A stretch of DNA of 64,000 nucleotides from an uncultured cyanobacterium (GCA_963718615.1 OY970368.1:1-64000); one strand, 5' to 3'; counted from the stretch's first letter, positions 13,358-41,054 are shown. Notes: a model not told the origin generated them from the sequence alone. A program made the numbers and translations.

Positions 13358-14787
13358 TTACCAGCCAAGGAAGAGGGACTTTGTCCGGGAATACTGGTCA
13401 AGGGCATCCTGCCCGTTCTCCCGGCCGATCCCGCTTCCCTCCACGCCCCCGAAAGGAACTTCGGGGGGTATGGTCAGGTGCCGGTTGACCCAGACGATAC
13501 CGGCATGGACTTCATCGAATACTTTTCTCGCGGTATGGAGGTTGGCAGTCCAGATCGATGCGCCAAGCCCGAACCGTGAATTGTTAGCGTCCCGGATCGC
13601 GGCATCCAGGGTGGAAAACGTCATGACCGGAAGCACCGGCCCGAAGATCTCCTCAGTCACCAGCGGGGATTCCGGGGATACGTCCGTCACCAGGGTCGGG
13701 CGGTAAAAAAATCCCTGCTCGTACGCTTTTCCTTTCAGGGCGCACCCACCGGCAACAACCTTCCCGTCATTGTTCCCGCGAACGGTCTCGACCGCATCCT
13801 CTATGAGTTCCCGCTGCACGCTGCTGTTGAGAGGCCCCATATCGATCTTCGGCCCGAGACCGTTCCCAACACTCAGGGCATTGGTGCGTTCTTTGAGTTT
13901 CCTGATAAACACTTCAGAAACCGCTTCCTGGACGTACAGACGCTTGACCGCGGTGCAGGTCTGCCCGGCATTGTAGAACCGTCCCCGGATCGCGCCTTCA
14001 ACGGCCCGGTCAATATCAGCATCGTTCATGACGATCATCGGATCGGACCCGCCCAGTTCCAGAGTGACTTCTCTGAGATGATGGGACGAGACTCCTTAAC
14101 TCTCATGCCGGTAGCACAGCTGCCGGTAAACGAGATCTTCCGGATGCCCGGGTGCCGCACCAGGGCCTCACAGGCCTCCCCGCCGCTTCCCGTGATGACG
14201 TTGAGTACCCCGGGCGGGAGACCCGCTTCATCGAGAATCTTTGCGAGCCGGAGATTCGCAAGGGGGGTAGTGGAGGCAGGTTTCAGGACAAGGGTGTTTC
14301 CGGCAAGCAGGGCTGGTCCCACTTTCCAGCCCATGATAAGGACCGGCAGGTTCCACGGGATGATCGCAGCGCAGACACCGAGCGGTTCGCGGACAACGAG
14401 GCAGTCACCAGCCGGGCCGAGCCGGATGGTTTCGCCGGACTGGTGCGCAGAGATCCCGGCATAGAATTCGAGGATATTGGCAAATCCCCGGACTTCATCG
14501 ATCGACTCCCGCAGGGGTTTTCCCTGTTCCTCGGTCAGGAGCCGGGCAAGATCCTTGTGCTGTTCCCGGACAATCCCGGCAGCCCGGTACAGGATCATGC
14601 CACGCTCCCGCTGGGTCTTCTTCTTCCAGCCGTCGGATGCTGCATCGGCTGCTTCAACCGCCCGGTCCACATCCTCTGCCCGGCCCGCGGGCACGCGGTC
14701 GACACGTTCACCGGTTGCCGGGTTCTTTACCTCGATCCACTCCTCATCCAGAGACGCGGTTTCCGTTCCCCCAATCCTCATAAGCAT
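13358..14787 (-). CDS. NAD(P)-dependent aldehyde dehydrogenase (frameshift ~14085)
   Basis: IIPWN, LKPA, FTGS, LELGG, NAGQTC, EEIFGPV and PFGG motifs across two ORFs. Confidence 0.92.
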
Positions 14788-14875
14788 GATAATCTCCCAT
14801 CCTGGCGGCGCCCGGGTCCGCCCGTTATGAAATACATGGGTATGTACGCCTATAAAGGTCCCGCCGGGGCAGGAC

Positions 14876-15299
14876 CTAGGAATTGTTTTCCGGGTTCCGG
14901 ATGTATTCCATGCCCTCTGCGTACGCGTTTTTGCCGGTGAACGTTGCAACCGTGTGTTCCCCGTCGCTGGCAACAATGACCGGGACATTCTTTTCGACAA
15001 GGAAAAAGAGTTCGAGGAACTCGCATTCTTCGATCTTGAGCCCTTTTACGAGCACCGACGCGGGCTCAAGATCCATGCGCTCCTGCGCAAGGTCCGCCGG
15101 CATCACCCGGAAAAAATAATAAAAGGCCTGCCATGCATTGAGGAGATCGGAGACGAGCAGACTCGGACCGGATTTGTTCGTCGAGCCTGTCCATCATGTT
15201 TGCAAGACAGGCAACATTCTCTTCGCAGGACTCCAGCAGTTCGTCGGCCGCTGCCACGAGCGCAGGATAGGGAATCTTTGACGGACTACTCATTGACAC
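14876..15299 (-). CDS. hypothetical protein (probably one gene split at an A/T run ~15112)
   Basis: Two overlapping short ORFs, 15066-15299 and 14876-15106, flank a homopolymer. Confidence 0.45.
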
Positions 15300-15397: not shown

Positions 15398-15670
15398 GTG
15401 AAAGATGAGGAAGCGGACTGGCAGATCTATCACCTTATCCCGGAAGGTTCTGCCACTACGGCCGGGGAACTGGAGAGGAAAAGCGGCCTGGATGCGGCAT
15501 CCGTTGCGGCATCCTTAAAACGGCTCGAACGATCCTGTCTCGTAGAACGCTCGGGCGATACGATCCGTATGCTGAATTTCGGCGAAGCGCTCCTCAAAAA
15601 CCAGGTAAAATATGAAAAAGGTCTGCCGTTCACGATAGAAAACGGCGTCATCAGGGCAAGGAAGGACTAG
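15398..15670 (+). CDS. small winged-helix HTH protein
   Basis: T.GEL..KSGL....VAASLKRLE...LVER pattern; first gene of the operon. Confidence 0.65.
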
Positions 15671-15671
15671 C

Positions 15672-16202
15672 ATGCCAGAACAGGAAACCGTAATTCTGAG
15701 AATCGGCCACCGGCCCGAGCGGGACCAGCGCGTAACTACCCATGTAGGCCTGACCGCCCGGGCGCTTGGGGCAAAAGGAATGTTCCTTGCCGCGTCAGAC
15801 AAGGGCGTTGTCCAGAGTATTGCGGATGTCGTGGATCGCTGGGGCGGGGAGTTCTTCTGCGAGGATAATATCAAATGGCGCTCCTGCATCAAGGACTGGA
15901 AAGCATCCGGCGGCACCGTTGTCCACCTCACCATGTACGGCCTCAACCTGCCGGACATTATCGGGGACATCCGGCCCCACAACCGGATCCTCGTCATTGT
16001 TGGCGCCGAGAAAGTCCCGGGTGAGATCTATGGCCTGGCCGATTACAATGTCGCGGTCACCGGCCAGCCCCACTCCGAGATCTCGAGCCTGGCACTCTTC
16101 CTCGACCACCTTGCATCGGGAACCGGGCTTGCCCACGAATTTCCCGGCGCAAAAATCAGCATCATCCCCTCCAAAGCAGGAAAACAGACGGTGGAACGGT
16201 GA
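15672..16202 (+). CDS. trm56: archaeal tRNA (cytidine56-2'-O)-methyltransferase
   Basis: [40 protein letters not shown] and QPHSE motifs. Confidence 0.95.
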
Positions 16203-17275
16203 AAGGGCGGGTGCTCGTTGCCGGGTTTTCAACCCGCCATGTAGCACAATCGGCCCACAATGCCGGGTATGATGTCTGCACGGTCGATCATTTCTGCGAC
16301 CAGGATCTTGCCTGGTACACAAAGGACCAGGAGAGGTTCGAGGATCTCGCGGATCTACCCGATGCCATCGACAGCATCTGCCGGCGCAATACATTCGATC
16401 TCTTTATTCCGACATCCGGGGCAGAGAGCCTGGAAATCCCGCTGCCTCTCTGCGGGACACCGCCTGCCACCATTGCAGCTTTCATGGACAAGCTGGATAC
16501 CCAGCATTTTTTTGAAGCACACGATATCCCCGTCCCCCGCATACTCCCGGCAAACGAATATCCCGCCATGATCAAACCGCGCCGGGGAGCCGGCGGGTGG
16601 CGGAATGCGGTAATCGAGAGCGAACCGGCGATGGCCGCGTGGGAATCGCTCTACCCCGGTGTCCCGTATATCCGCCAGGAGATCGTAGAGGGCGTACCTG
16701 CCAGCGTCTGCTGTGTTGCCACGGGAACAGATGCAATGGCGATTGCCGCCAACGGGCAGATCCTCAGGGGAAAAGGAGAATCTGCGTTCGGGTTCTCCGG
16801 TTCGATCACGCCGTTTTCCGATCCCTCCTCAGGCCGTATGATCGCACTTGCCGAACGCATCGCTGCCCTCAGCGGGTGCCGGGGCACGATCGGGATCGAT
16901 TTTGTTATCAGCAACGGGATACCGGTTGCCATCGAGATCAATCCCCGGTTCCAGGGCACGGTCGACACGGTCGAAGGGGCGTACGGGTGCAACCTTTTTG
17001 AGTGCCATGTCAATGCCTGCGCCGGCATCCTGCCACCGGCACGACCCCGGTTCCGGCAATTCGCGGTACGGAGCATCCTCTTTGCCGGGCGCGACATGAC
17101 GGTCCGGGCCGATCTCCGGCAGTTCCGGGATTTTGCAGCCGACATCCCCTGGCCGGGAACCGTTCTCGAAGAAGACCAGGCAATCGTGAGCGTGTACGGG
17201 TGGGGAAATACCCATACCGAAGCGATGGCACTGCTGGATAAGCATATTACTACCATCCGACAATATATGCGCTGA
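16199..17275 (+). CDS. ATP-grasp domain protein
   Basis: [21 protein letters not shown] and EINPRFQG motifs. Confidence 0.88.
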
Positions 17276-17796
17276 TGGATCCAACGGAAGACTTGATCAA
17301 CGATCCCGCAATACGTGCCTACCTTCACCGCCTTGTTGGCGATGAGGGTCTCAATCTTCTCGAACGGTTTCCCAAGGACGGGGAGCACAGCGATGAAGAA
17401 CTGGCAGCAAAGACCGGGATCAACCTAAATTCGGTCCGGCACACGCTCTATACGCTTTACGAAAAACGCCTGGCTGAATACCACCGGATCAAGAACAACG
17501 AGACCGGCTGGCTCACCTACCTCTGGCAGCTCCGCACCGATCATATTTACGATGCTATCCGCGAAGACATGGGGCTCGTGCTCGAAAAACTCTCCCGGCG
17601 CGAGCGGTTCGAGGAAGAGAACGACTTCTACATCTGCAAGGACTGTCACCTCATCTTCACGTTCCCGCAGGCCATGAATACGGATTTCAAGTGCCCGGAC
17701 TGCGACCAGCCGATGGGCCATTTCGATAACGAGATGCTCTTAAAAGCGCTCACCCACCGGATCCAGGATATCCGGAAATCCCTGGGTCATGCCTGA
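17275..17796 (+). CDS. tfe: archaeal transcription factor E (TFE alpha)
   Basis: SDEELA..TGINLNSVR..LY.LYE..LA.Y, GWLTYLW, and zinc ribbon CxxC...CPDC. Confidence 0.95.
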   Translation: MDPTEDLINDPAIRAYLHRLVGDEGLNLLERFPKDGEHSDEELAAKTGINLNSVRHTLYTLYEKRLAEYHRIKNNETGWLTYLWQLRTDHIYDAIREDMGLVLEKLSRRERFEEENDFYICKDCHLIFTFPQAMNTDFKCPDCDQPMGHFDNEMLLKALTHRIQDIRKSLGHA

Positions 17797-18289
17797 CCGG
17801 ATACAACACTACGAAAATATTCTGCGCGAGGCCGGGTGCAGTGCAAAAGTTATCGCCCACTGCCGGGCAGTAACGGACTGCGCACAGGAATATGCTGCAC
17901 GGAACCCGGATGTTGACAGGGAGCTGGTACTTGCGGGTGCCATGCTCCATGATATCGGCCGCAGCATTACCCATACAATTCACCATGCACAGGACGGTGC
18001 GGATCTCCTGCGCAGCCGGGGATTCCCCGAAGAGCTGGCCCGGATTGTCGAATGCCATACCGGGGCCGGTCTCACGGCCGACGAATGTACGATCCTCGGG
18101 CTCTCGCCCCGGGACTGCGTGCCGGCAACTACGGAAGAGAAGATCGTTGCGCACGCGGACAACCTGATTGCCGGCAAACACCGGGTATCGATTGAGGAGA
18201 GTATCGGGTCGGCCATTCACCTTCCAAAAAAAGCCCGGACGCGGATGTACCGGCTTGCACGCGAAGTTGAACTGCTGTGTAGCGGATAA
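17789..18289 (+). CDS. HD-domain protein (HDIG)
   Basis: HC, LHDIGR, HA..G, HTGAG and EEKIVAHADNL motifs; usual neighbour of tfe. Confidence 0.9.
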   Translation: MPDRIQHYENILREAGCSAKVIAHCRAVTDCAQEYAARNPDVDRELVLAGAMLHDIGRSITHTIHHAQDGADLLRSRGFPEELARIVECHTGAGLTADECTILGLSPRDCVPATTEEKIVAHADNLIAGKHRVSIEESIGSAIHLPKKARTRMYRLAREVELLCSG

Positions 18290-30389: not shown

Positions 30390-31024
30390 GTCGGATTTGG
30401 CGATGCGAAGGCATTGGGCAGCGTAGTTTTGCAGGATTGGAGAACAGGGATCGCGCATGACTTTAATCGAGAGAATAATCGGATTTCATAGATGAGCTGT
30501 GTGAGCAACATCTGGTTTTGTCGTGGCACTGTGGAGAATCGTGCAGAGATAGTCATTGTCCATAGAAGCCCTGTATCGCTTGAGTTTGAGTGACTTTTGG
30601 AAGCTCTTCTCCTGGGATAATAGGTTGAGCGCTAAACGCCTCAGCAACGAGAAGTTGCGCGGACGGTTTCCCTTGCGAATGCGCGAGGCATCCTCGCGAA
30701 AAACCACATCCAACACCCAGTGAAGCTGGTTCTCAATCCCCCAGTGGGAACGAATCGCTCTTGCCAAGACTGAGGCTTGCGCCTCGCAGCTTGTGAGGTA
30801 AAAGTGAACCTCACGGGTCGTTTTGTTCCACAGCACTCGTTCGCGGCGTACTACCACGATGCTGGCGAGTCCTTCCCACTCGCCCAGTTCAGGCCAATCG
30901 GGCAACTCGCTGATGTCGATCGCCCAGACTTGGCGGGTCTCATCGCGCCCATGAAGTGAAGTGACCCCCAAAACCTGAACAGAAGCGAGAGAGAGTAAGC
31001 TAAAGTCTAGGAGGCAAAAGGGTC

Positions 31025-31327
31025 ATGGCAAAAAGACAGAGAAATTACAGCAGCGAGTTCAAGGCCAAGGTGGTACTGGAAATGGTCAGCGGCCAGCGGT
31101 CGCCGACGGAGGCAAGTCGAGCTCATAAGGTCCATCTATCAGTGCTATGCCGGTGGAAGAATGAATTTCTCAAGCAGGCCCATCGAGCATTTGAAGGGAA
31201 AGAATCAAATGACGAAGCCTCAGAGAGAATAAGCGAATTAGAAAGAATGATAGGTCGATTGACAATGGAGCTAGAAGTGTCAAAAAAAGCTTCGGATGTG
31301 TGGAACCTGAGCGGAAACGGAAAATGA
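31025..31327 (+). CDS. IS3 OrfA
   Basis: RNYSSEFKAKVVLE HTH and leucine zipper; slippery A7G at 31282-31289. Confidence 0.9.
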   Translation: MAKRQRNYSSEFKAKVVLEMVSGQRSPTEASRAHKVHLSVLCRWKNEFLKQAHRAFEGKESNDEASERISELERMIGRLTMELEVSKKASDVWNLSGNGK

Positions 31328-32169
31328 TAGAGGAGTTCAAGGAAGACTATCCCATTCAAATTATTTGCGATGTGATTGGATACAGTCGAAGCCGATATTA
31401 CTACAAGCCGAATTCAGAGAAAGAAGATGAAGACGAAAAGCTCAGAGTAGCGATTATCGAAGTTGCAGGAAGATATCCGACTTACGGTTACAGACGGATA
31501 ACGAAACAACTTCAGCGAGAAGGATGGAGTGTCAACCATAAGCGAGTGAGTCGTCTGATGAGGCAGTTAGGTCTACTAGCTCAAAAGCGGGTGAGGCGGA
31601 AGCGAACGACGAACAGTGTGCATGGCTATCGGCGTTATCCAAATCTGGAGAAAGGGCTGTTGGTAATGCGTCCTGAGCAGGTGTGGGTGGCGGACATCAC
31701 CTATATCCGCTTGAAGGAGGAGTTTGTCTATCTGGCAGTGGTGATGGATGTATTCACCCGCAGTATACGAGGATGGCACCTGGATAAGACAATGGAGAAG
31801 AGCTTGACGATAACAGCACTGGAGAAGGGATTGATGAAAGCAATTCCCGAGATACATCATTCAGATCAAGGGGTGCAATATGCAGCGAATGACTATGTAA
31901 AAATGTTGGAAGAACACAACGTTAAGATTAGTATGGCAGCAGTCGGGAAAGCCTGGGAGAATGGATATGCGGAAAGATTAATGAGGACGATCAAAGAAGA
32001 AGAAGTAGACCTATCAGAATACCGAAACTTTAGTGAGGTCTATGAGCGAATAGAAGAGTTTCTAGAGGAAGTGTATATGAAGAAAAGAATCCACTCGTCA
32101 TTGAGCTATTTGACACCGGCTGAATTTGAAGAAAAGTGGATGCGCGGGCAACAGAATGCAGAAGTGTGA
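31300..32169 (+). CDS. IS3 OrfB DDE transposase (-1 frame)
   Basis: YGYRRI, WVADITYI, HHSDQG.QY, ENGYAER and HSSL.YLTP. Confidence 0.93.
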   Translation: MEPERKRKMIEEFKEDYPIQIICDVIGYSRSRYYYKPNSEKEDEDEKLRVAIIEVAGRYPTYGYRRITKQLQREGWSVNHKRVSRLMRQLGLLAQKRVRRKRTTNSVHGYRRYPNLEKGLLVMRPEQVWVADITYIRLKEEFVYLAVVMDVFTRSIRGWHLDKTMEKSLTITALEKGLMKAIPEIHHSDQGVQYAANDYVKMLEEHNVKISMAAVGKAWENGYAERLMRTIKEEEVDLSEYRNFSEVYERIEEFLEEVYMKKRIHSSLSYLTPAEFEEKWMRGQQNAEV

Positions 32170-33606
32170 TAAAAGTAAAATAACTCTCGCTTAGGCCAGA
32201 TCTTTCTGTCCAAAGGAAGGGGTTCACTTCAAAGCGTTTCCTGACTTTGGGCAAAGTCGAATTCGATTCCCTCCCACTGGTTCGCCTCTGCGGCCTCGAC
32301 CCAGTCTTTGACCAAGCCGTAGAGATTCGCGTGATTGGCCTTGAGCGTTAGGACATAGTCTGCCCCCTTGCCCCGAATCTGCTTGGCAATCGCCTTTTGA
32401 GTCCCCATCGCATCAATCGTTACGATACAACCGTCCAGGGCGAGCATGTCCAGCAGCTTCGGAATCGCCGTGATCTCATTCGACTTTCTGTCCACCGGCA
32501 TTTGACCGAGCACCAAACGATGCTCGCTGGCCCAGGCACTGACTTGATGCAGCGCTTTGAGCCTCTGGTTGCGGTCATAGGAGCCCCGTTGCGTTTTGCC
32601 ATCCAAGGCAATCAGCTTGGCACTTCCCCCGTAGCTCACCAGCAGCTCCTGCACCCATTGCCGGAATCCCCGCTCGAAGGCGTCCGCATCAAGATGCTCA
32701 AACACCCGCTCAATCGTATCGTGGGACGGAATACCGAACGGTAAGTCCAGAAAGCTTTCCAGCCACTTTTGTTTGCTACGTCCGTACACTTCTATCTCCT
32801 CCCAGTGCTCCGCCCCGCACAACACTGCCAACAGCGAGATTCCGATAATTGATAGCAGAGGATGCCAGTAACGCCTATCACGCCTGGGGTCTTTGAGTCC
32901 CTCGAATGCTTTCAGCCAGCCGCCCGGCGGCTGGCAACCTTCCCAAGACGGCTCTTTCCTAGCGGCCTGGAATCCTTCTGGCTTGACGCCAGCAACTTTG
33001 GGGGGATTCAGCATCTGCAAGTACCTATAGGCTTTACTCTCTCAGCTTTCCCTCTCTGACTCTCTCATCTTTTTCTCTCTGCTAAAGTGATGCGTTCGCC
33101 CTGGATTGGAGAAGTGAGGTTGGCGAATTCGGCGAAGTGGAAATGGGCTTCGCCGCGCATTCCGAGGCCGGGTTTGAAGTTGATAATTTTGGCGATCCTT
33201 CGGAGCTTGGCGAAGCCAATCGCATTAAAGTTCCGACCGGCTTGGATGATGGCTTGGATGGCGTTGTCATTGAGGGTGGAGTAGTGGCGATCGCCTATCT
33301 GAATATTCTGGCCTTGGCCGATGTAGATGTTGTATTTGCCGTCGAGTTGCTGGACGGTTTCGGGGCTGCGGCTGAGGTATTGACGTAGGATGGCTAGGTC
33401 GGTCGGGGTTGGGTTTCCGGTTTCGATGCGTTGCAAGATTTGCTTGAGTCCATCGGGGAGGAGCATCGGATTTTGGGGCTGCTGGGAATAAGGTTTCTGG
33501 TTTGAGTTTTATTGTAGTTTGGGTGCTGATTATTACGCTGTTGGGGGGGGGTGAGGCATACTGAAGGCAGTTCAGATTTGCCCTCCTTAAATTTTTCTGA
33601 AGCCCT

Positions 33607-36600
33607 ATGGCGACGCCGGATGAGCTATTGCTTTTGGTAGACCGCATTCTCAGCATGGTTGGGGATGAGGGAATTGAGTTGGAGCGGTTGCAACGGATGG
33701 AGGGTGGGCAGGGGGTGATTCAGTATGTTGTCCAGATTGGGAAGTACAACACGAATGTGGGGCAGGGTGAGGGGATTGAGATTGGCGATCGCCTGGATCG
33801 CTCAATTCTAGAAGAAATTCGAGATTTGTTGCGATCTCAACTCGCTCCACCACCAACCGAAATTGACTGGCAGCAGGTGAGCCGATCGCTCCTCAATCAG
33901 CAAATCCAGCGCCTGACCACGAACCCGCTGACCCATGCCGAGGGCATTGCCTATCGGACAGAGCAGGTGTACGTGCCGCTGGGGTTGGTGGAGCGCAAGC
34001 AGGTGTCGCGTCGCCGGGAGGATGTGTCGCCGGAGCAAGGCTCGTTGCTGTATGAGGAGACGGAGATTATCCAGAAGTTTGAGCAGGGGACGTTTCTGGA
34101 GCAGGTGTTGCGGCAGGGGCAGAGTCCTCGGAGTGGGGGGCGACGGATTGCGGTGATTGGGGAGCCGGGAGCGGGGAAGACGACGCTGTTGCAGCAGATG
34201 GCCCGGTGGGTGGCGGAAAATATTGAGGGGGCGATGGCAATTTGGGTGTCGTTGGCAGATTTGCAGGGGCGATCGCTGGAGGATTATCTGCTGGAGCAGT
34301 GGTTGCCAGCAGCGGTGCAGCAGCAGGGACGGGCGGAGGCTTCGACCCAGGTAAAGGATGCATTGGTGGCGCAGTTTCGGGCGGGGCGGGTGTGGCTGTT
34401 GCTGGATGGGGTGGATGAAATGCCGGTGGCGGCGGGCAATCCGTTGAGTGAGATGGAGCGGCAGGTGCGGTTGGGGGGCTTATTGGCGCAGGCGCGGATC
34501 GTGTTGACTTGTCGGTTGAATCTATGGGATGGCGATCGGCATGCGCTGGATACGTTTGATGTGTATCGGACGTTGGAGTTTGCTTATCCGGGGCAAGTGG
34601 AGCAGTTTGTGGAGCAGTGGTTTGGGGCGTTGCCAGAGGCGCAAGTGGGGCAGGCGGAGAAGCTGTGTGAGGCGTTGCGGCAACCGGGGAAGGAACGGCT
34701 GCTGGATTTAGTGAAGAATCCGCTGCGGTTGACGCTGTTGTGTTTCAACTGGTATTTGGGGGAGGGGACGCTGCCGGAGACGAAGGCGGGATTGTATGAG
34801 CAGTTTGTGGCGGATTTCTATGAGTGGAAGCGTGAGCGGTTTCCGACGACAGCGGCGCAGCGGCGGCGGTTGAATGCGGCGTTGGGGGAGTTGGCGCGGG
34901 AGGCGATCGACAAGGAGGAAACGCGGTTTCGGCTACGGCATGACTTTGTGTGTGAGTTTTTGGGTGAGCCGGATGAACCTGATTCGTTGTTTCAGATAGC
35001 GTTGCGGTTGGGCTGGCTGAATCAAATCGGAGTGGATGAAGAAAATCGGCGAAAGGCGGTGTATGCGTTTTTTCATCCTACGTTTCAGGAGTATTTTGCG
35101 GCGTTAGCTATCAGGAATTGGGATTTTTTCCTGCCCTATGAACACAATAACGTCTCTCCCAAACCCATAGAAGGTAAAGACTATAGGATATTCGATACCA
35201 ACTGGCAAGAAACTATTCTAATGTGGAGCGGAAAATCACAGGAGTACGACAATAGAAGGGCATTTATCAAAGCTCTGATTGATTTTCAAGGCGGATGTAG
35301 CAATTTTTACTCCTACAGGGCATATTTCTTGGCTGCAATTGTTGCATCACAGATCGGCGAGCAAGAGTTATCCAAAGAAACTATAATAAATTTGATCGAT
35401 TTGAGCTTCTTCACTAGATTTGAGCCAACAGCAGATGCTGATAAATACTGGCTGCATTGTCCAGTTCAAGAACAAGCAAAAGAAATACTGCAATTCACGA
35501 AGCGGAGTATTGCGATTGACGAACTAATTCAAGCAATAGACATAACAAGCAATTTATATAAACAGAATGACCTGGCTGAATTGATGGGTAAAATCAGCCT
35601 GAAACATCCCAGAGCCATTGAATTTTTAACTCAATTAATGAATCGCTCTGAACATAAATTTTCCACTGTGGATATAGCAAAGAGTCTATGGCTTGTCGAT
35701 CCAGGAAATCTCAACGCAGTCAATAAATTTATTGACTTGCTCAGCCCTGAAGAAGAAAACATGGTGTCAAGCCGCGCTGCTCAGGTAGTAGCGAGTAATA
35801 ATATTCAATCTCCTGGAATTATTTCTGCTTTAATTAACTTGGCCAAAAAAGACGGAAATGACTTCACCCTCAGTTCACAAGAAGTTTTGAGAGGATTAGA
35901 GAAATTTGGAATCCGTAATAGATCTATAATTGACACTGTGATTAATTTAATTGATATAGCTAAAATTGATAAAAGTCATGAAAATCAGCGCGCCCTAATT
36001 CGAACTCTTGGAGAAATTGGATTGGAAGATTTAAAGGCATTGAGCTATCTAATCAATCTACTGGATAAAGTTGATGATGAACCTTCTCGGTGGTTGATTG
36101 CTGACAGCATCGGAAGAATCGGCAATAAAAGTCCGAAAACAATCTCTATTTTAACTAATTTAACTTCTGAATGCGAGCATGAATGGACTCGCCAACAAGC
36201 GGCTGAAAGCCTTCTGAAAATTGTGCCCGATCATCCTGACGCATTGAATTTACTTGTAGATTTATTATATGTTACAAAGAATTGGCGGACTCAGCATCGA
36301 ATAATCCGAAGCTTAGAGAAAGTAGGTTGCGGAAAGAGATTGGCAATTGAAAATCTAATTAGATTTGTTGACCAACAGTTCGATCAACGTAGTTGCAATG
36401 AACATTGTCTTTATATTTGCGAACAAGCTGCTGAAGTTCTAGGAAAAATAGATCCTGGCAATGAGAAAGCTACTCACATTTTGATTGAACTACTCAATAA
36501 TGAGGATAATAAACCAGGCACTAACAGAAATATCATTTGGAAACTGGGAGATATTGGAAAAGGCAATATCAAAGCAGTCGAAGCTTTAACTCATTTTTTT

Positions 36601-36876
36601 GAAAAAAAGTATAATGTCGAAGACTCTTTTGTCAAGTACTTGCATCAGAACAACATTTCATCTATACCTAGAAGTCTATGTAAAATTATGTCTATTGAAT
36701 CTTATCAATTAGTGATTCAGCATTTAAAAATATATCTATCTGAAGAATCGTACAAGGACGATTTTGACCGATTTAAATCTGCTTATGAGGTAGTTTGGCA
36801 CTGCGCTCAAAGTATGAGCTATACCGACTTTTATAGCGCATGGCATAGTGTTTATTCAGGGATGGAGCAAAAGTAG
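33607..36876 (+). CDS. NACHT NTPase with EAD10-like N-terminus and HEAT-like C-terminal repeats
   Basis: GEPGAGKTT, LLLDGVDE, LTCR, NPLRL and FFHPTFQEYFAA; repeated AA..LG.I helices. Confidence 0.92.
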   Translation: MATPDELLLLVDRILSMVGDEGIELERLQRMEGGQGVIQYVVQIGKYNTNVGQGEGIEIGDRLDRSILEEIRDLLRSQLAPPPTEIDWQQVSRSLLNQQIQRLTTNPLTHAEGIAYRTEQVYVPLGLVERKQVSRRREDVSPEQGSLLYEETEIIQKFEQGTFLEQVLRQGQSPRSGGRRIAVIGEPGAGKTTLLQQMARWVAENIEGAMAIWVSLADLQGRSLEDYLLEQWLPAAVQQQGRAEASTQVKDALVAQFRAGRVWLLLDGVDEMPVAAGNPLSEMERQVRLGGLLAQARIVLTCRLNLWDGDRHALDTFDVYRTLEFAYPGQVEQFVEQWFGALPEAQVGQAEKLCEALRQPGKERLLDLVKNPLRLTLLCFNWYLGEGTLPETKAGLYEQFVADFYEWKRERFPTTAAQRRRLNAALGELAREAIDKEETRFRLRHDFVCEFLGEPDEPDSLFQIALRLGWLNQIGVDEENRRKAVYAFFHPTFQEYFAALAIRNWDFFLPYEHNNVSPKPIEGKDYRIFDTNWQETILMWSGKSQEYDNRRAFIKALIDFQGGCSNFYSYRAYFLAAIVASQIGEQELSKETIINLIDLSFFTRFEPTADADKYWLHCPVQEQAKEILQFTKRSIAIDELIQAIDITSNLYKQNDLAELMGKISLKHPRAIEFLTQLMNRSEHKFSTVDIAKSLWLVDPGNLNAVNKFIDLLSPEEENMVSSRAAQVVASNNIQSPGIISALINLAKKDGNDFTLSSQEVLRGLEKFGIRNRSIIDTVINLIDIAKIDKSHENQRALIRTLGEIGLEDLKALSYLINLLDKVDDEPSRWLIADSIGRIGNKSPKTISILTNLTSECEHEWTRQQAAESLLKIVPDHPDALNLLVDLLYVTKNWRTQHRIIRSLEKVGCGKRLAIENLIRFVDQQFDQRSCNEHCLYICEQAAEVLGKIDPGNEKATHILIELLNNEDNKPGTNRNIIWKLGDIGKGNIKAVEALTHFFEKKYNVEDSFVKYLHQNNISSIPRSLCKIMSIESYQLVIQHLKIYLSEESYKDDFDRFKSAYEVVWHCAQSMSYTDFYSAWHSVYSGMEQK

Positions 36877-36924
36877 ACTTAGGATAAAATCTTGTTGAAA
36901 AATTTGACGCGTAAAGACATTACT

Positions 36925-39237
36925 CTACTCAACTTTTTTATGGTTGCGTTTTTCGATTTCAGAGATCGGCAACAACAATGTCTCTTCAATTTCCTTTTTT
37001 ATATTGTCACTCAATTCAAAATCTTCATTTAGGCAGTCAATCAAAAAAACATTAGCATTCCAATATAGCTTAATTCTTGCCTTGTTGGAATCCGTAAAGT
37101 TCCAATCATGAGCAATATCACAGTATGAAACTATTATCTTTCTAAATTTTTCGATAAAATCCGGCTGATTTTTATTCCACCAGTCATCATCAAATGATCT
37201 ACCATCAAAAACACTAGAAGGAACTTGATATAGCAACTCTTTTAAAGCCTGCTTGAGATTTAAACTATAGTTTAAACTTAACCCAAATCCAAGGAAGATA
37301 TTTGAGCTTTGTTGCGTCGCTTTAACTATATCGAGATTTAGGCCAAAAGCCTTATCTAATGAATTATTGACATCAATAGACTGATCCATTTGGAGAATTT
37401 TATTAATACTGCTAACAAGACTGCCATTGAATCCGTGAGGCGTCTCAATGTATGATTCAAAATCAACAGCTAAACGCAAATAAAATGCTCTTGCCATCGT
37501 TTTTCTAATGGGATTATTGAATTGACTAGATTTATTGTTTACCCACGTTAAAAACTGTTGATAAATATTTTCAGTACGCAAAATAGAATCGATTTCTTGC
37601 TTCATAGAATTTAGCAAAGTATTAACAGCTTGAGGGGTCATGGAACATCCTAGCAAGAAGATTTGCTTCCAATGAATATCTACAATATGCTTGGCTAAAT
37701 TCTTCCAATCCGCTCGAGCGCAAAACCACTTTGCTACCAAATACTCCTGAAAAGTCAGGTGAGAAAACGACCAAAGTCCCTTCGCCCTCTCAATAAGCAA
37801 TCCATGTTGCTGCGAGATCGCCCTCAACACCCCCCGACTCTCCCGCACCTCAATCCCCAAAAACTCCGCAATATACCCCTCAATCTCCGCCTGCTCAAAC
37901 AACACATACTGCGCTTGCTCAAACTTCTTCACCGCCAGATAGCCCAATAGCTCCAACTTCCGCTCCACCGACAAATCGCGATAAATCTCATCCCGCTCAA
38001 TCTCCCGCGCCCTGTCCCACTGCTCCAGCAATAGCTCCAACCCCTCCTCATAGAGCTTAGAACGCTTCGAGTAAAACTTCCCCGTCTGCTGAAACACCGC
38101 ACAGGTCAAACTCAACAAAATCGGGGTAATCGCCAATTCCCGAATCGGCTTGTTCTCCTCCCGAAAAAGCTGATCCAGAAATGCCTTTCCCTTTGCCTGT
38201 CCTACGGTGAGATCCCCGCAAACCGTCTGAAACCAATGCTCCGAAAATGCCCTCACCTGCGGATCATTAAAATCCGCCACCTCCACAGCATCAAACCGCT
38301 CAAACCGCGACTCCTGGCTCTGCGTCCGGCAGGTCACAATCACCTGCACCTGAGGATAGTCCCGCGCAAACCGCTTGATTTGCTTAACGATCGCCTGCCC
38401 ATCCGCCCCCGTCACCTCATCCAACCCATCCAGCAGCACCAGCGATCGCCCCGCCTCCAGCACTAACTGAACCTCTACGGCTGATAACCGCCAGCACCGC
38501 TCCAGATACCGCTCCACCACATAGTCCAGCGATCGCCCATCCTCCACAAACTCCCGCAGCCGAATCAACACCGGAATCCGGTGCGCCTGCAAATTGCCCG
38601 CATTACACTCCGTCACCACCCGCTGCAAATAGGTCGTCTTCCCCGAACCCGGCTTACCCACCACCATCAGGTTCGTATTCCTGTCCAACACCTCCAGCCC
38701 CGACACCCGCTGCCGTTCCTTACCCAACCCCATCCGATCCAAACTGCGATAGCCAGGATTCTGGCTGAAATCTTGCCACAGGTCAGCCAACTCCGATCGG
38801 CGATTGCTGCTCACCTCCTCCAAAATATTCACATCCACAAACAACTCCCCCAACGGTACCCAATGATCCACCCCCCAGAGCGGCATCGTGCCATGCAAGC
38901 GTTGAATGTCATCGTGGAGGCGCGATCGCACCTGCTCCACCAAATCATCGATCGCTGGTAATTCCGCAGTCGCCGATGGCAACGGTGGGGCCAATTGCTC
39001 CCGGATGGCTTGGGCGATCGCTCGGATCTGCTCATCGGTTAGAGTAGTGCGATCGCCAATATGCACTTGCCCCAAAGCTTTTTCGATGTTGACGACGTAC
39101 TTTCCCAGTTGAATTTGACCAGAATTATCACCAGAAGTCAGCCAGAGTTTTAGGCAAGCAATATCATTCGCTGTTAAGCTTCCTTGCTCCAGGTGCGACA
39201 GGATTAAGTCTAGATTCATCGGCTGATTTGAGGTCAT
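36925..39237 (-). CDS. NACHT NTPase with EAD10-like N-terminus and C-terminal helical domain
   Basis: GKPGSGKTT, LLDGLDE, VTCR, TPILL, FSHLTFQEY and terminal Y..AN..L.DCL...IEETLLLP. The ATG at 39237 lies 1 nt after the caspase stop. Confidence 0.92.
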   Translation of the reverse strand: MTSNQPMNLDLILSHLEQGSLTANDIACLKLWLTSGDNSGQIQLGKYVVNIEKALGQVHIGDRTTLTDEQIRAIAQAIREQLAPPLPSATAELPAIDDLVEQVRSRLHDDIQRLHGTMPLWGVDHWVPLGELFVDVNILEEVSSNRRSELADLWQDFSQNPGYRSLDRMGLGKERQRVSGLEVLDRNTNLMVVGKPGSGKTTYLQRVVTECNAGNLQAHRIPVLIRLREFVEDGRSLDYVVERYLERCWRLSAVEVQLVLEAGRSLVLLDGLDEVTGADGQAIVKQIKRFARDYPQVQVIVTCRTQSQESRFERFDAVEVADFNDPQVRAFSEHWFQTVCGDLTVGQAKGKAFLDQLFREENKPIRELAITPILLSLTCAVFQQTGKFYSKRSKLYEEGLELLLEQWDRAREIERDEIYRDLSVERKLELLGYLAVKKFEQAQYVLFEQAEIEGYIAEFLGIEVRESRGVLRAISQQHGLLIERAKGLWSFSHLTFQEYLVAKWFCARADWKNLAKHIVDIHWKQIFLLGCSMTPQAVNTLLNSMKQEIDSILRTENIYQQFLTWVNNKSSQFNNPIRKTMARAFYLRLAVDFESYIETPHGFNGSLVSSINKILQMDQSIDVNNSLDKAFGLNLDIVKATQQSSNIFLGFGLSLNYSLNLKQALKELLYQVPSSVFDGRSFDDDWWNKNQPDFIEKFRKIIVSYCDIAHDWNFTDSNKARIKLYWNANVFLIDCLNEDFELSDNIKKEIEETLLLPISEIEKRNHKKVE

Positions 39238-39238
39238 A

Positions 39239-40522
39239 TCAATTCTGCGATCGCCCCACAGAAACCATCTGAACATTGTGGATAGAGCAGTTAGGAGGCT
39301 CTTGCTCCGCCGATCGTTTCACCCAGACCATCTCGCAATCCGGATCTGGGCACACATACTTCACGGCTTGAAATGCTTGTGGCTGGGTGCTCCCAACAAT
39401 TTTATTACCCATCACTTTATCCCCACCAACTTTATCGCCCGCAACCTTATCACCAGCCACATAATCGCCCTGGGGACTATAGTTATCGCCAATATGGCCT
39501 GTAAAGTGTCCAGTACTGATGTTGTATTTGCCTCGCTGCTCAACATTCTGGCTTCCAAAGGAGTTGCCGCTACCTGTGACGATCGTTGAATCTGAGGCAT
39601 TACCGCCGATCGCTACCGATCGTTCGCCCGAAGCGAGAACCTGCGTCTGAGGCTTAGCCGCAGGAGTAGTCGTTTGCATCGCATCCCAGCCACCGGAAGG
39701 TAAACCCTTGCCCCCTTGAAGTAGCGCGATCGCAAATCGTTCCGTGTCTCGCATTTCAAAGCGTGGAGTTTGCTGCTGCTTCATTGCCGCTGCTGTGGTA
39801 GGGACAGTTTTCCCCAGGTGGTTCGCTAAGTCAAAGACGGTGACTTCTGTTGCACCGGCCTGACTTGCCGCACCTTGTAGGGCTTCAATCAAGTGGTAGG
39901 TGTAGACGCTCATGGCATTGTCCGGTCGAACCCAGGACTTCTCCTTGCCCCGGCAGGAGGTGAACACGACCCGTCCTTCTCCCTGTTGGAGTGCGTCGAG
40001 CATCCCTTTGGGGTCAGCGGTGGGGATGATGCCTTTGGGAAGTCGAGGCAATTCGGCCTTATCTTTAGCGGAGGCCATTCCCGCTGCATGGCAACAGTCG
40101 AGGATGACCAATAGGCGTTTGGCCTTGATGGCTTGCAAGGCTTGATTAAAGTCATCGGCAGGCAAAGCTGTATCCCGCCAGTCATAGGCATCAAAATCGT
40201 GAGGTACAAGGTAATAACGATCGCTGGTTTGTTCTAGCCAGCCATGCCCAGAGTAGTAGACAATGACGGTAGCTTCTGGGTCAGTGGCAACACGATCGCG
40301 CAGCCAAGTGAGATTGTTAAGAATTGCCGATTTGGTTGCCTGCTTGTCATGCAGCAGCCGGACATGTTGATCATTATCGGGATAGGCACAGAGGACGGGA
40401 CTGACTAGAATTTGACGTAGGGCCTGCATATCCTGAACGGTAACGGGGAGGGAAAGTTTGGGATCAGCGCATTGCCCTACGCCAATGAGCAGTGCATATC
40501 CATGATTAAAACGCTCAGTCAT
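39239..40522 (-). CDS. caspase-like peptidase (C14) with a multi-motif low-complexity tail and Zn ribbon
   Basis: ALLIGVG, YYSGHG (His) and LDCCHAAG (Cys); C-terminal CPDPDC...CSIH. Confidence 0.9.
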   Translation of the reverse strand: MTERFNHGYALLIGVGQCADPKLSLPVTVQDMQALRQILVSPVLCAYPDNDQHVRLLHDKQATKSAILNNLTWLRDRVATDPEATVIVYYSGHGWLEQTSDRYYLVPHDFDAYDWRDTALPADDFNQALQAIKAKRLLVILDCCHAAGMASAKDKAELPRLPKGIIPTADPKGMLDALQQGEGRVVFTSCRGKEKSWVRPDNAMSVYTYHLIEALQGAASQAGATEVTVFDLANHLGKTVPTTAAAMKQQQTPRFEMRDTERFAIALLQGGKGLPSGGWDAMQTTTPAAKPQTQVLASGERSVAIGGNASDSTIVTGSGNSFGSQNVEQRGKYNISTGHFTGHIGDNYSPQGDYVAGDKVAGDKVGGDKVMGNKIVGSTQPQAFQAVKYVCPDPDCEMVWVKRSAEQEPPNCSIHNVQMVSVGRSQN

Positions 40523-40551
40523 TGCTCTAATCCCTTGAAAAATCACATTTT

Positions 40552-41054
<503 letters not shown>

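What the first reader, a model, noticed from the sequence alone, without database searches (positions are those of the whole stretch)
35083..37752. Both NACHT C-terminal regions form one AT-rich cassette bounded by an in-frame 14-bp inverted repeat
Seen: in both convergent genes the sequence switches from GC-rich and HIP1-containing to AT-rich with no HIP1 noticed, just after the FQEY motif. TTTCAGGAGTATTT at 35083-35096 is exactly inverted at 37739-37752, in the same codon phase. Inference: C-terminal sensor domains are exchanged by recombination at this conserved motif, and inverting the 2.67-kb segment would swap the HEAT-like and helical tails between the two NTPases in frame, like a shufflon. 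Caveats: no recombinase is visible in the window, and conservation of the FQEY protein motif alone could produce the repeat.
Basis: partly seen in the sequence, partly recalled or inferred. Interest (0 to 1): 0.7.

Follow-up and report, generated by a model that had tools for sequence, protein, structure and literature searches.

The report
Swappable sensor tails on cyanobacterial NACHT genes
Two tail-to-tail immune-type NACHT genes each join a conserved GC-rich front half to an AT-rich sensor tail that is exchanged between cyanobacteria by recombination, and the small inverted repeat at the joints comes from a shared protein motif and is not a flip-switch.

Summary
TTTCAGGAGTATTT is exactly inverted at 35083-35096 and 37739-37752, in the same codon phase. 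GC3 drops from 0.70/0.67 to 0.33/0.33 at the FQEY motif of both convergent EAD10-NACHT genes, and no HIP1 site lies between the repeats.

In the window plus 80 related loci, head identity and tail identity are uncorrelated (r=0.08, 1957 pairs). Tails fall into discrete, deeply diverged types. Near-identical syntenic loci lose all homology 2-20 nt after FQEY and regain it 63-130 nt before the stop codon. AU tests reject two tail types as clades on the head tree.

"One cassette" and "shufflon" are not supported. Tails swap singly: two Nostoc loci differ in the B tail but share the A tail. The repeat is no longer in 12 same-locus gene pairs (median 8 nt) than in cross-genome pairings, 7% of which reach 14 nt. 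None of the 55 window ORFs scanned is a tyrosine or serine recombinase. No inverted configuration was found.

The head/tail GC3 step is family-wide (73 of 73 genes) and remains unexplained. This scan earlier noted similar GC-rich-core/AT-rich-specificity mosaics in restriction genes on other DNA. I rate this a new variant of a known kind (module exchange, as in Rhs C-terminal displacement).

The parts
33607..35094 (+). Gene A head: EAD10 adaptor domain plus NACHT NTPase module, ending in ...FFHPTFQEY. GC-rich (GC 0.58, GC3 0.70), with 2 HIP1 sites.
   Evidence: 82-84% DNA identity to heads in G199, G149 and G033
35083..35096 (+). Left arm of the 14-bp inverted repeat, the codons of F-Q-E-Y plus TT.
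35095..36876 (+). Gene A tail (593 aa): HEAT repeats plus the NCC-H end. AT-rich (GC 0.37, GC3 0.33), no HIP1.
   Evidence: the closest tails are metagenome proteins P0003 (74%) and P0004 (69%)
36877..36924 (.). 48-bp spacer between the two stop codons. The scan found no intrinsic terminator.
36925..37740 (-). Gene B tail (271 aa): helical region plus the NCH2 domain. AT-rich (GC 0.34, GC3 0.33), no HIP1.
   Evidence: the closest tail is P0123 of Nostoc cycadae at 59%
36933..36999 (-). Conserved 3' end of the NCH2 tail (...ETLLLPISEIEKR...). This is the downstream homology patch of the exchange unit.
   Evidence: 67 nt at 86.6% to L036; the C-terminal motif is conserved across the family
37739..37752 (-). 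Right arm of the 14-bp inverted repeat, the codons of F-Q-E-Y plus TT.
37741..39276 (-). Gene B head: EAD10 plus NACHT module, ending in ...SFSHLTFQEY. GC-rich (GC 0.55, GC3 0.67), with 6 HIP1 sites. A gene caller starts it at 39219 (764 aa, P0122).
39239..40555 (-). Caspase-like peptidase (Peptidase_C14) directly upstream of B on the same strand. It is the likely effector. Its C-terminal part gives only a weak EAD10-like match (E 0.13).
30489..33041 (.). IS remnants upstream of A: a DDE_Tnp_1 transposase split by an rve-type IS. These are the only recombination-type genes near the locus, and neither is an invertase.

Best explanation
The 2.67-kb AT-rich block is two separate sensor tails that lie back to back because the genes converge.

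Each gene is a bacterial NLR-like STAND NTPase with three parts: an N-terminal EAD10 adaptor, a conserved NACHT module ending at H-x-T-F-Q-E-Y, and a variable C-terminal sensor.

Across cyanobacteria the tails exist as discrete, anciently diverged allelic types. They are moved between genomes and swapped in by ordinary homologous recombination. The conserved head supplies one homology arm. The conserved 3' end of the tail plus downstream DNA, or the partner gene's head, supplies the other.

The apparent breakpoint at FQEY is the place where homology between allelic lineages ends. It need not be a cutting site. The 14-bp inverted repeat exists because both genes encode FQEY with the same common codons.

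Shown here: the mosaic structure, the incongruent head and tail histories, exchange of single tails, the fixed junction, and the family-wide step in composition.

Inferred: the recombination pathway (RecA-type after DNA uptake or plasmid transfer), the immune function, and that the tails are ligand sensors.
For: 1. Relatives keep both heads in the same convergent order at 82-85% DNA identity. The middle has no DNA match and differs in length: 1644, 1870, 2110 and 2168 bp against 2616 bp here. The alignments break at window 35102 and 37718.
2. In the window plus 80 loci (79 genes parsed), head identity against tail identity gives r=0.08 over 1957 within-clade pairs. 1920 of 1957 pairs have tail identity under 40%, while 1689 of 1957 have head identity of 70% or more. 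Of 49 pairs with heads 90-95% identical, 88% have tails under 40%.
3. Near-identical syntenic loci show clean replacements. L057/L060 are 94% identical over 3.97 kb up to 2 nt past FQEY, and homology resumes 63 nt before the stop. L061/L065 are 95.6% identical up to 5 nt past FQEY, and homology resumes 130 nt before the stop and continues at 94.5% downstream.
4. Within a tail type, tails do not evolve faster than heads. The tail is more similar than the head in 7 of 23 pairs, for example L064/L092 with head 81% and tail 93%.
5. The 61 B genes carry 47 tail types. AU tests reject both four-member tail types as clades on the head tree, p = 5e-8 and 2e-7.
6. Tail families cross head clades with the junction at the motif. 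A heads carry NCH2 tails reading FQEYFAA|K.FC in G033 and L076. A B head carries NCH2 plus TIR in L051. A B head carries a HEAT tail from a third NACHT clade in L076 and P0179.
7. The inverted repeat is not conserved. The longest exact run in 12 same-locus pairs has median 8 nt (range 5-14), the same as in 846 cross-genome pairings.
Against: No genome of the same species was available, so no exchange event is dated in this lineage and no donor is identified. The best matches to the tails are only 74% (A) and 59% (B) identical.

Simple homologous exchange does not explain the composition. Heads are GC-richer than their flanks in 71 of 73 genes and tails AT-richer in 71 of 73, in hosts of 33-51% flank GC. 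In this genome heads sit near the 98th and tails near the 2nd percentile of ORF GC3.

The conserved last 70 codons of NCH2 tails are barely GC-richer than the tail middle (0.31 against 0.27). A pure 'recombining parts become GC-rich' account therefore does not fit well.

Five of the eight AU tests that were needed did not finish. One further pair needed no test but is a clade with only weak support (58).

The immune function is assumed from family membership.
Confidence: 0.8

Rival explanations
1. Programmed, shufflon-like inversion. A site-specific recombinase flips 35097-37738 between the two 14-bp repeats and so swaps the HEAT and NCH2 tails between the two NTPases within a population.
For: The repeat is exact, inverted and in the same codon phase, so both products would be in frame. 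Natural A-head plus NCH2-tail chimeras exist with the joint within 3 codons of FQEY.
Against: Pfam found no tyrosine or serine recombinase in the 55 window ORFs scanned, and none in the 3 left out of that list. The repeat is not conserved among the 12 convergent pairs (median 8 nt, same as cross-genome pairings). No inverted copy of the same cassette was found in the 401 genomes searched or among the 80 fetched loci. In G033, the A-head/NCH2 chimera sits beside a B tail still 76% identical to that of G199, which means single replacement and not a flip. The HEAT tail on the L076 B head comes from a third NACHT clade.
Confidence: 0.03
2. In this genome both tails arrived together. One double crossover, with one exchange in each head, imported a whole 2.67-kb two-tail block from an AT-rich donor that had the same convergent pair.
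For: Both tails have the same GC3 (0.33) and lack HIP1. The convergent A/B arrangement recurs in 12 same-locus pairs, so such donors exist. One soil-metagenome contig (about 91% identical) runs from the A tail end across the spacer into the B tail end.
Against: The closest known relatives of the two tails are in different sources. Single-tail swaps are documented elsewhere. All tails of the family have GC3 of 0.19-0.42, so equal composition says nothing about a joint arrival.
Confidence: 0.2
3. There is no exchange. The tails diverged in place by very fast, AT-biased point mutation or targeted hypermutation under an arms race, while the heads stayed constrained.
For: Kibby et al. (bioRxiv 10.1101/2022.07.19.500537, passages read) describe the region C-terminal to NACHT in the bNACHT01 clade as rapidly diversifying. 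The tails are AT-rich, which is the direction of the usual bacterial mutation bias (recalled).
Against: Loci whose heads and both flanks are 94-96% identical have tails with 32-34% protein identity and no DNA match. Tail identities are bimodal: 1920 of 1957 pairs lie under 40% and 23 at 60% or more. Within a type, tails are as conserved as heads (7 of 23 pairs have the tail more similar than the head). Whole domain families differ between tails (HEAT/NCC-H, NCH2, NCH2+TIR). Pfam reported no reverse transcriptase in the 55 window ORFs scanned.
Confidence: 0.04
4. Rare evolutionary inversions between the short FQEY repeats, by RecA or illegitimate recombination and not programmed, are one source of the cross-clade chimeras such as A head plus NCH2 tail.
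For: The chimera joints read FQEYFAA|K.FC. That is A-type for 3 residues and then B-tail-type, which is where a crossover in the shared 14-31 nt would fall.
Against: No reciprocal product was found. No B head carries an A-type FAALAI...HEAT...NCC-H tail among the 66 B-clade genes classified. An 8-14 nt homology is below what RecA normally uses (recalled). Replacement from a paralogue elsewhere explains the same joints.
Confidence: 0.1

Closest known systems
Bacterial NACHT / NLR-related STAND NTPases with EAD adaptor domains (Kaur et al. 2020, eLife, PMC7159879; Kibby et al. 2022 preprint 10.1101/2022.07.19.500537)
   Same: The architecture is the same: an N-terminal effector-associated domain (EAD10), a NACHT module, and a C-terminal sensor (HEAT repeats, NCC-H, NCH). 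A caspase-like effector gene lies next door. Cyanobacteria are rich in paralogues, and the C-terminal region is more variable than the NACHT module (passages read).
   Different: In the passages read, those papers describe variability and domain assortments. They do not describe discrete tail alleles swapped at one fixed junction between near-identical loci, or a GC3 step at that junction. [quoted passage not shown] In these two clades heads 90-95% identical usually carry unrelated tails.
Rhs C-terminal displacement and CdiA-CT polymorphic toxin tips (Jackson et al. 2009, BMC Genomics, PMC2935791)
   Same: A conserved core ends at a short conserved motif. Beyond it lie discrete, conserved but unrelated C-terminal tips that are exchanged by recombination and not by mutation, and base composition changes at the core boundary (passages read). 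That the Rhs core is GC-rich and the tips AT-rich is recalled.
   Different: No displaced orphan tips lie downstream of the NACHT genes, and there is no immunity gene. The variable part here is a receptor and not a toxin. The replaced block is bounded on both sides by conserved coding sequence.
Shufflons and invertible segments (R64 shufflon with Rci; phage Mu G segment with Gin) - recalled
   Same: Inverted repeats lie inside coding sequence at the boundary between a constant N-terminal part and alternative C-terminal parts, in frame.
   Different: There is no recombinase, the crossover site is not conserved, both genes are complete in one fixed orientation, and no second orientation was seen.
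   Same: A specificity module flanked by conserved sequence is swapped by recombination. That scan note reports a GC-rich core with an AT-rich specificity part.
   Different: The protein family is different. Here the module is a presumed protein or ligand sensor of an NLR-like NTPase.
Fungal NLR domain assortment (Dyrka et al. 2014, PMC4986451; search listing and abstract start only)
   Same: Combinatorial association of NOD modules with different sensor and effector domains.
   Different: This is a eukaryotic repeat-based system. No fixed nucleotide-level junction or composition step is known to me from the abstract.

Membership tests
Bacterial NACHT (NLR-related STAND) NTPase | NACHT domain with a Walker A P-loop and a Walker B motif | tested here: met
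   Pfam NACHT scores E 1.2e-14 (A) and 4.8e-18 (B), both above the curated cut-off. GEPGAGKT / GKPGSGKT and LLLDGVDE / VLLDGLDE can be read.
Bacterial NACHT (NLR-related STAND) NTPase | Tripartite layout: N-terminal effector or adaptor, NACHT module, C-terminal sensor | tested here: met
   EAD10 at residues 1-77 (A) and 17-91 (B). HEAT_2 plus NCC-H on A, NCH2 on B.
Bacterial NACHT (NLR-related STAND) NTPase | Protection against phage or another invader | not testable with these tools
   Inferred from the family only (passages of Kibby et al.).
EAD-coupled conflict system (Kaur et al. 2020) | The same EAD is present on a neighbouring effector protein | tested here: inconclusive
   The C-terminal part of the caspase-like neighbour matches EAD10 at E 0.13, 12.7 bits against a cut-off of 24.1. 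A GKYN...IGD core is visible by eye. A caspase-like gene lies within the fetched DNA, which includes up to 5 kb upstream of B, in only 7 of 80 loci.
Shufflon / invertible DNA segment | A dedicated site-specific recombinase (Rci, Gin/Hin-type or similar) encoded nearby | tested here: not met
   None of the 55 ORFs scanned across the 64-kb window has a Phage_integrase, Resolvase or Recombinase match. Only DDE/rve transposases occur, at 30489-33041. The 3 ORFs not in that list (alpha-mannosidase, genes A and B) were scanned and show none.
Shufflon / invertible DNA segment | A conserved crossover-site repeat maintained at the DNA level | tested here: not met
   The longest exact run at the motif in 12 same-locus A/B pairs has median 8 nt (range 5-14). 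This equals the 846 cross-genome pairings.
Shufflon / invertible DNA segment | Both orientations present in a population or among close relatives | tested here: inconclusive
   No reads of the strain were found; one soil run holds 7% of the words. No strand-changing joint was seen in its contigs. No inverted copy was found in relatives.
C-terminal displacement type module exchange (Rhs-like) | A conserved core ending at a fixed short motif, followed by discrete unrelated tips | tested here: met
C-terminal displacement type module exchange (Rhs-like) | Core and tip histories are incongruent | tested here: met
   r=0.08. The AU tests give p = 5e-8 and 2e-7.
C-terminal displacement type module exchange (Rhs-like) | Displaced orphan tips retained downstream | tested here: not met
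   tblastn of all tails against the loci with their NACHT genes masked found only tails of unparsed or broken genes and short remnants of partner genes. No orphan arrays were found.
Diversity-generating retroelement target | A reverse transcriptase and a template/variable repeat pair | tested here: not met
   Pfam reported no reverse transcriptase in the 55 window ORFs scanned. No intragenomic DNA copy of the cassette exists beyond a 43-nt motif match.

The most novel reading that the evidence does not exclude
The tails form a pan-cyanobacterial library of sensor alleles that lives under a different evolutionary regime from the heads. One possibility is that the tails are kept in an AT-rich, largely plasmid-borne or Nostocales reservoir. 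Another is that the heads, used again and again as homology arms, are driven GC-rich by biased gene conversion while the never-paired tails drift to the AT-rich mutational equilibrium.

Either way, the GC3 step at FQEY, seen in 73 of 73 genes and in hosts of 33-51% flank GC, would be a standing footprint of a natural 'plug-in' junction for immune receptor specificity. It could be used directly to build chimeric bacterial NLRs.
Probability: 0.25. Interest if true: 0.7.

Novelty: new variant of a known kind. Interest (0 to 1): 0.45.

Why it matters
Bacterial NLR-like proteins are thought to be ancestors or analogues of animal and plant innate immune receptors. How they gain new specificities is mostly inferred from domain catalogues.

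This work gives nucleotide-level evidence for one route. Discrete sensor alleles are exchanged at one fixed junction between otherwise near-identical loci.

The junction can be tested directly by swapping tails at FQEY and measuring specificity. The family-wide step in composition is a simple marker for finding such exchange modules in other defence genes.

The work also removes a more exotic reading, a DNA flip-switch, that the sequence alone suggested.

Tried and rejected
- Intragenomic donor. tblastn and blastn of both tails and the cassette against the whole genome found no close copy. The best tail match was 30% protein identity, and the only DNA hit was a 43-nt motif match.
- Other NACHT genes of this genome. 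Of 21 NACHT hits, these two show the sharp GC3 step at FQEY. Most others are uniform, and a few (4841500-4843374, 1561680-1564394) vary along the gene without such a step.
- Reads. Only one run (X1, soil metagenome, kept as contigs) held 7% of the sampled words. Laid at 80% likeness it gave short contigs about 90-95% like parts of the heads and the A tail, and no joints. Parts without cover, such as 37060-37547, say nothing. This cannot test inversion in the strain.
- Metagenome loci. The first scan with the A tail found nothing. The second, with an alignment of four tails, returned only distant relatives at 24-38% and not the P0003/P0004 contigs. The DNA context and composition of the closest A-tail relatives therefore remain unseen.
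- L076 as a possible inversion product (A head with NCH2, B head with HEAT). Rejected because the nearest relatives of its B tail sit on the same B head (P0179, 90%) or on a third NACHT clade with ...HRTFLEYFCA heads.
- Orphan tail arrays. None found. The extra stretches of about 0.9 kb downstream of B in L060, L065 and L092 hold pairs of short unrelated ORFs that looked to me like toxin-antitoxin-type genes (by eye, recalled; no family search was run). They are not tails.
- Phage reservoir. No phage record matches the B tail. Plasmids carry full-length NACHT-NCH2 genes at about 30% identity in 30 records, 15 of them Nostoc. That fits a plasmid route but does not prove one.
- The idea that conserved parts become GC-rich. 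The conserved last 70 codons of NCH2 tails have GC3 0.31 against 0.27 in mid-tail, which is only weak support.
- Terminator in the 48-bp spacer. None found.
- Literature. Searches, and passages read, found no description of this junction or of the GC3 step in cyanobacterial NACHT genes. Supplements were not opened.

Full report
**Observation**

The 14-mer TTTCAGGAGTATTT occurs exactly twice in the window, at 35083-35096 (+) and 37739-37752 (-). Shuffles give 0.03 matches on average. The repeat extends to 31 nt at 84%.

Both arms are the codons of F-Q-E-Y, in phase, in two convergent genes.
- Gene A is 33607-36876 (+), 1089 aa, with EAD10, NACHT, HEAT_2 and NCC-H.
- Gene B is 36925-39276 (-), 783 aa, with EAD10, NACHT and NCH2.
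- A caspase-like peptidase gene (39239-40555, -) lies directly upstream of B.

GC3 is 0.70 (A) and 0.67 (B) before FQEY and 0.33 in both genes after it. The change occurs within about 20 codons. The interval 35097-37738 has 36% GC in a closed 6.1-Mb genome of 52.3% GC. Only 18 stretches of that genome have 2.6-kb windows below 38% GC. The genome has 1.44 HIP1 sites per kb, and none lies between 34269 and 38442.

**Is this particular to these two genes in the genome?**

Of 21 NACHT matches in the genome, these two show the sharp step at FQEY. Most others are uniformly GC-rich or uniformly AT-rich, and a few vary along the gene without such a step. No close copy of either tail exists elsewhere in the genome.

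Among 3341 ORFs of at least 250 aa, median GC3 is 0.59. Only 1.6% reach 0.70 and 2.3% fall to 0.33 or below. Heads and tails are therefore outliers in opposite directions.

**Relatives**

A DNA search of 61 and then 401 genomes of the same class found the heads but never the middle. 28 of 401 genomes matched at E of 1e-20 or better.

In G033, G199, G149 and G229 both heads lie in the same convergent order. Both heads are 82-85% identical in G033, G199 and G149. In G229 the B head is 85% and the A head 75% identical. The interval between the heads is 1644, 2110, 1870 and 2168 bp, against 2616 bp here, with no DNA similarity.

Pairwise alignment with G033 shows that identity ends at window 35102, which is 6 nt past the repeat, and at 37718. 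In G033 the A head carries an NCH2 tail in place of HEAT/NCC-H, and its middle is again AT-rich. Head proteins are 85% and 74% identical. Tails are 26% identical or less, or belong to another family.

**A larger sample**

A scan of one genome per species returned 80 loci with a B-type gene. With the window, 79 A- or B-clade genes could be parsed.
- Head identity and tail identity are uncorrelated, r=0.08 over 1957 within-clade pairs.
- 1689 pairs have heads at least 70% identical, and 1920 have tails under 40%.
- Tail identities are bimodal, with only 23 pairs at 60% or more.
- In 7 of those 23 pairs the tail is more similar than the head, so tails of one type do not evolve unusually fast.
- The 61 complete B genes carry 47 tail types.
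- AU tests reject both four-member tail types as clades on the head tree, p = 5e-8 and 2e-7.
- Two further pairs are already clades, one with support 99 and one with support 58 only. Five other AU tests did not finish.

**Event-level evidence**

- L057 and L060 are 94% identical over 3.97 kb up to 2 nt past FQEY. They are unrelated for 768 bp and homologous again from 63 nt before the stop codon into the downstream flank.
- L061 and L065 are 95.6% identical up to 5 nt past FQEY, and homologous again from 130 nt before the stop.
- In L042 and L046, two Nostoc species, only the B tail differs. Homology runs on at 94.2% for 5 kb through the spacer, the A tail and the A head.

G033 and G199 share the B tail (76%) but have A tails of different families. 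The unit of exchange is therefore one tail. On the 5' side it is bounded by the end of the NACHT module. For NCH2 tails the 3' boundary is the conserved end ...LLLPIAEIEKR. In the window that patch is 36933-36999, with 67 nt at 86.6% to L036.

The two tails look like one cassette only because the genes converge. B-type genes with no convergent partner have equally AT-rich tails.

**The inverted repeat**

Across the family, the FQEY codons are most often TTT CAA/CAG GAG/GAA TAT TT. In 12 same-locus A/B pairs the longest exact shared run has median 8 nt (range 5-14, with the window the longest). In 846 pairings of A and B genes from different genomes the median is also 8, and 7% reach 14.

Nothing indicates selection for identity of the two arms. 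The repeat is explained by the protein motif plus this genome's preference for CAG and GAG.

Pfam found no tyrosine or serine recombinase and no reverse transcriptase in 55 ORFs scanned across the 64-kb window. The 3 ORFs left out of that list had been scanned. Only nested IS transposases lie at 30489-33041.

The one public run with related DNA, a soil metagenome kept as contigs, gave no strand-changing joints. It cannot speak for the strain itself.

**Cross-clade tails**

NCH2 tails sit on A heads in G033 and L076. The joint reads FQEYFAA|K.FC, which is A-type for three residues and then B-tail-type.

L076 also has a HEAT tail on its B head, which at first looked like the reciprocal product of an inversion. 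Its nearest relatives are the same B-head protein in another organism (P0179, 90%) and proteins of a third NACHT clade with ...HRTFLEYFCA heads. It is therefore an import from elsewhere.

L051 has a B head with NCH2 plus TIR. No B head carries an A-type HEAT/NCC-H tail among the 66 B-clade genes classified.

**Composition**

- Head GC3 exceeds tail GC3 in 73 of 73 genes (means 0.52 and 0.28).
- Heads are GC-richer than their flanks in 71 of 73 genes, and tails AT-richer in 71 of 73.
- Head GC3 follows flank GC with r=0.69, and tail GC3 with r=0.45.
- The family mean GC3 profile is a step from about 0.5-0.6 to 0.25-0.30 within 20 codons of FQEY. GC at codon positions 1 and 2 changes little.
- HIP1 density is 0.99 per kb in heads, 0.78 in flanks and 0.12 in tails. 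By my estimate, composition alone predicts about a four-fold drop.

Neither "native head, foreign tail" nor "recombining parts become GC-rich" fits fully. The conserved 3' end of NCH2 tails is hardly GC-richer than mid-tail (0.31 against 0.27). Full-length NACHT-NCH2 genes occur on 30 cyanobacterial plasmids, 15 of them Nostoc, and on no phage record. An AT-rich plasmid or Nostocales reservoir is possible. The cause of the step stays open.

**How it most likely works**

By family (passages of Kaur et al. 2020 and Kibby et al. 2022 read), each protein is an NLR-like switch. The tail senses a signal of invasion. The NACHT module oligomerises on nucleotide binding. The EAD10 domain recruits an effector by like-with-like contact.

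Here the candidate effector is the neighbouring caspase-like peptidase. Its C-terminal part gives only a weak EAD10 match (E 0.13). A caspase-like gene accompanies the B gene in only 7 of 80 loci.

New specificity is gained by replacing the tail through homologous recombination in the conserved flanks, after transfer of DNA from another cyanobacterium. The mosaic structure and its incongruent history are shown here. The pathway and the function are inferred.

**Comparison with what is known**

The proteins are members of the bacterial NACHT family with EAD adaptors.

The mode of evolution works like C-terminal displacement of Rhs proteins (Jackson et al. 2009, passages read) and like exchange of specificity domains in restriction genes. 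It lacks displaced orphan tips.

It is not a shufflon. Two defining features were tested and not met, and one could not be tested.

Searches and the passages read found no description of this junction or of the GC3 step in cyanobacterial NACHT genes. Earlier notes of this scan report similar GC-rich-core and AT-rich-specificity mosaics in other defence genes on other DNA.

**Verdict**

Noticed in passing
window 33607-39276; L033, L036, L038, L040, L042, L046, L072, L076, L083, L086, L097; also G199 (L018) and G033 (L013/L034), where the contig end cuts the A head: An A-type and a B-type EAD10-NACHT gene lie tail to tail in 12 same-locus pairs from different cyanobacterial families, although the flanking genes differ. 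The pairing itself seems conserved and might mean that the two receptors work together.
   Followed up: partly
window 30489-33041: A DDE_Tnp_1 transposase gene is split into an N-terminal part (32232-33041) and a C-terminal part (30489-31022) by an rve-type IS (31213-32166). This is an IS nested inside an IS, directly upstream of gene A.
   Followed up: no
window 2851-4181 and 13361-15045: Tyrosyl-tRNA synthetase and an aldehyde dehydrogenase each appear as two overlapping ORFs that cover consecutive parts of the Pfam profile. These are frameshifts, either real or assembly errors, in a closed genome.
   Followed up: no
window 15639-18286: A run of ORFs with matches more typical of archaea (aTrm56, TFIIE_alpha), plus ATP-grasp and HD domains, inside a cyanobacterial chromosome.
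   Followed up: no
window 4201-9600: A second low-GC stretch (0.37) holds ORFs with MutS domain V, PD40/DUF5050 and Fic. It may be another imported island.
   Followed up: no
own genome G000:C1:2247558-2249777: A uniformly AT-rich NACHT-NCH2 paralogue (GC3 0.29-0.38 throughout). Its head is 62% identical to the B head but its tail only 23% identical.
   Followed up: partly
L051:4647-7982: A B-type head carries an NCH2 tail extended by a TIR domain, so an effector-type domain sits at the C-terminal end.
   Followed up: no
L060:7144-8053; L065:7146-8065; L092:7533-8489: Presence/absence differences of about 0.9 kb directly downstream of the B gene in Microcoleus loci. Each insert holds two short ORFs that looked to me like toxin-antitoxin-type genes (by eye, recalled; no family search was run). 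The L065 and L092 inserts are 97% identical.
   Followed up: partly
L041:7469-7708; L100:7269-7367: Short remnants of an A-type tail end (NCC-H) lie convergent to B with no intact A gene parsed there. This suggests the partner gene decays in some genomes.
   Followed up: no
window 35099 (run X1): Two soil-metagenome contigs follow the A head up to 35099 and then continue with unrelated, GC-richer sequence. Other tails appear to be joined at the same point in that sample.
   Followed up: no
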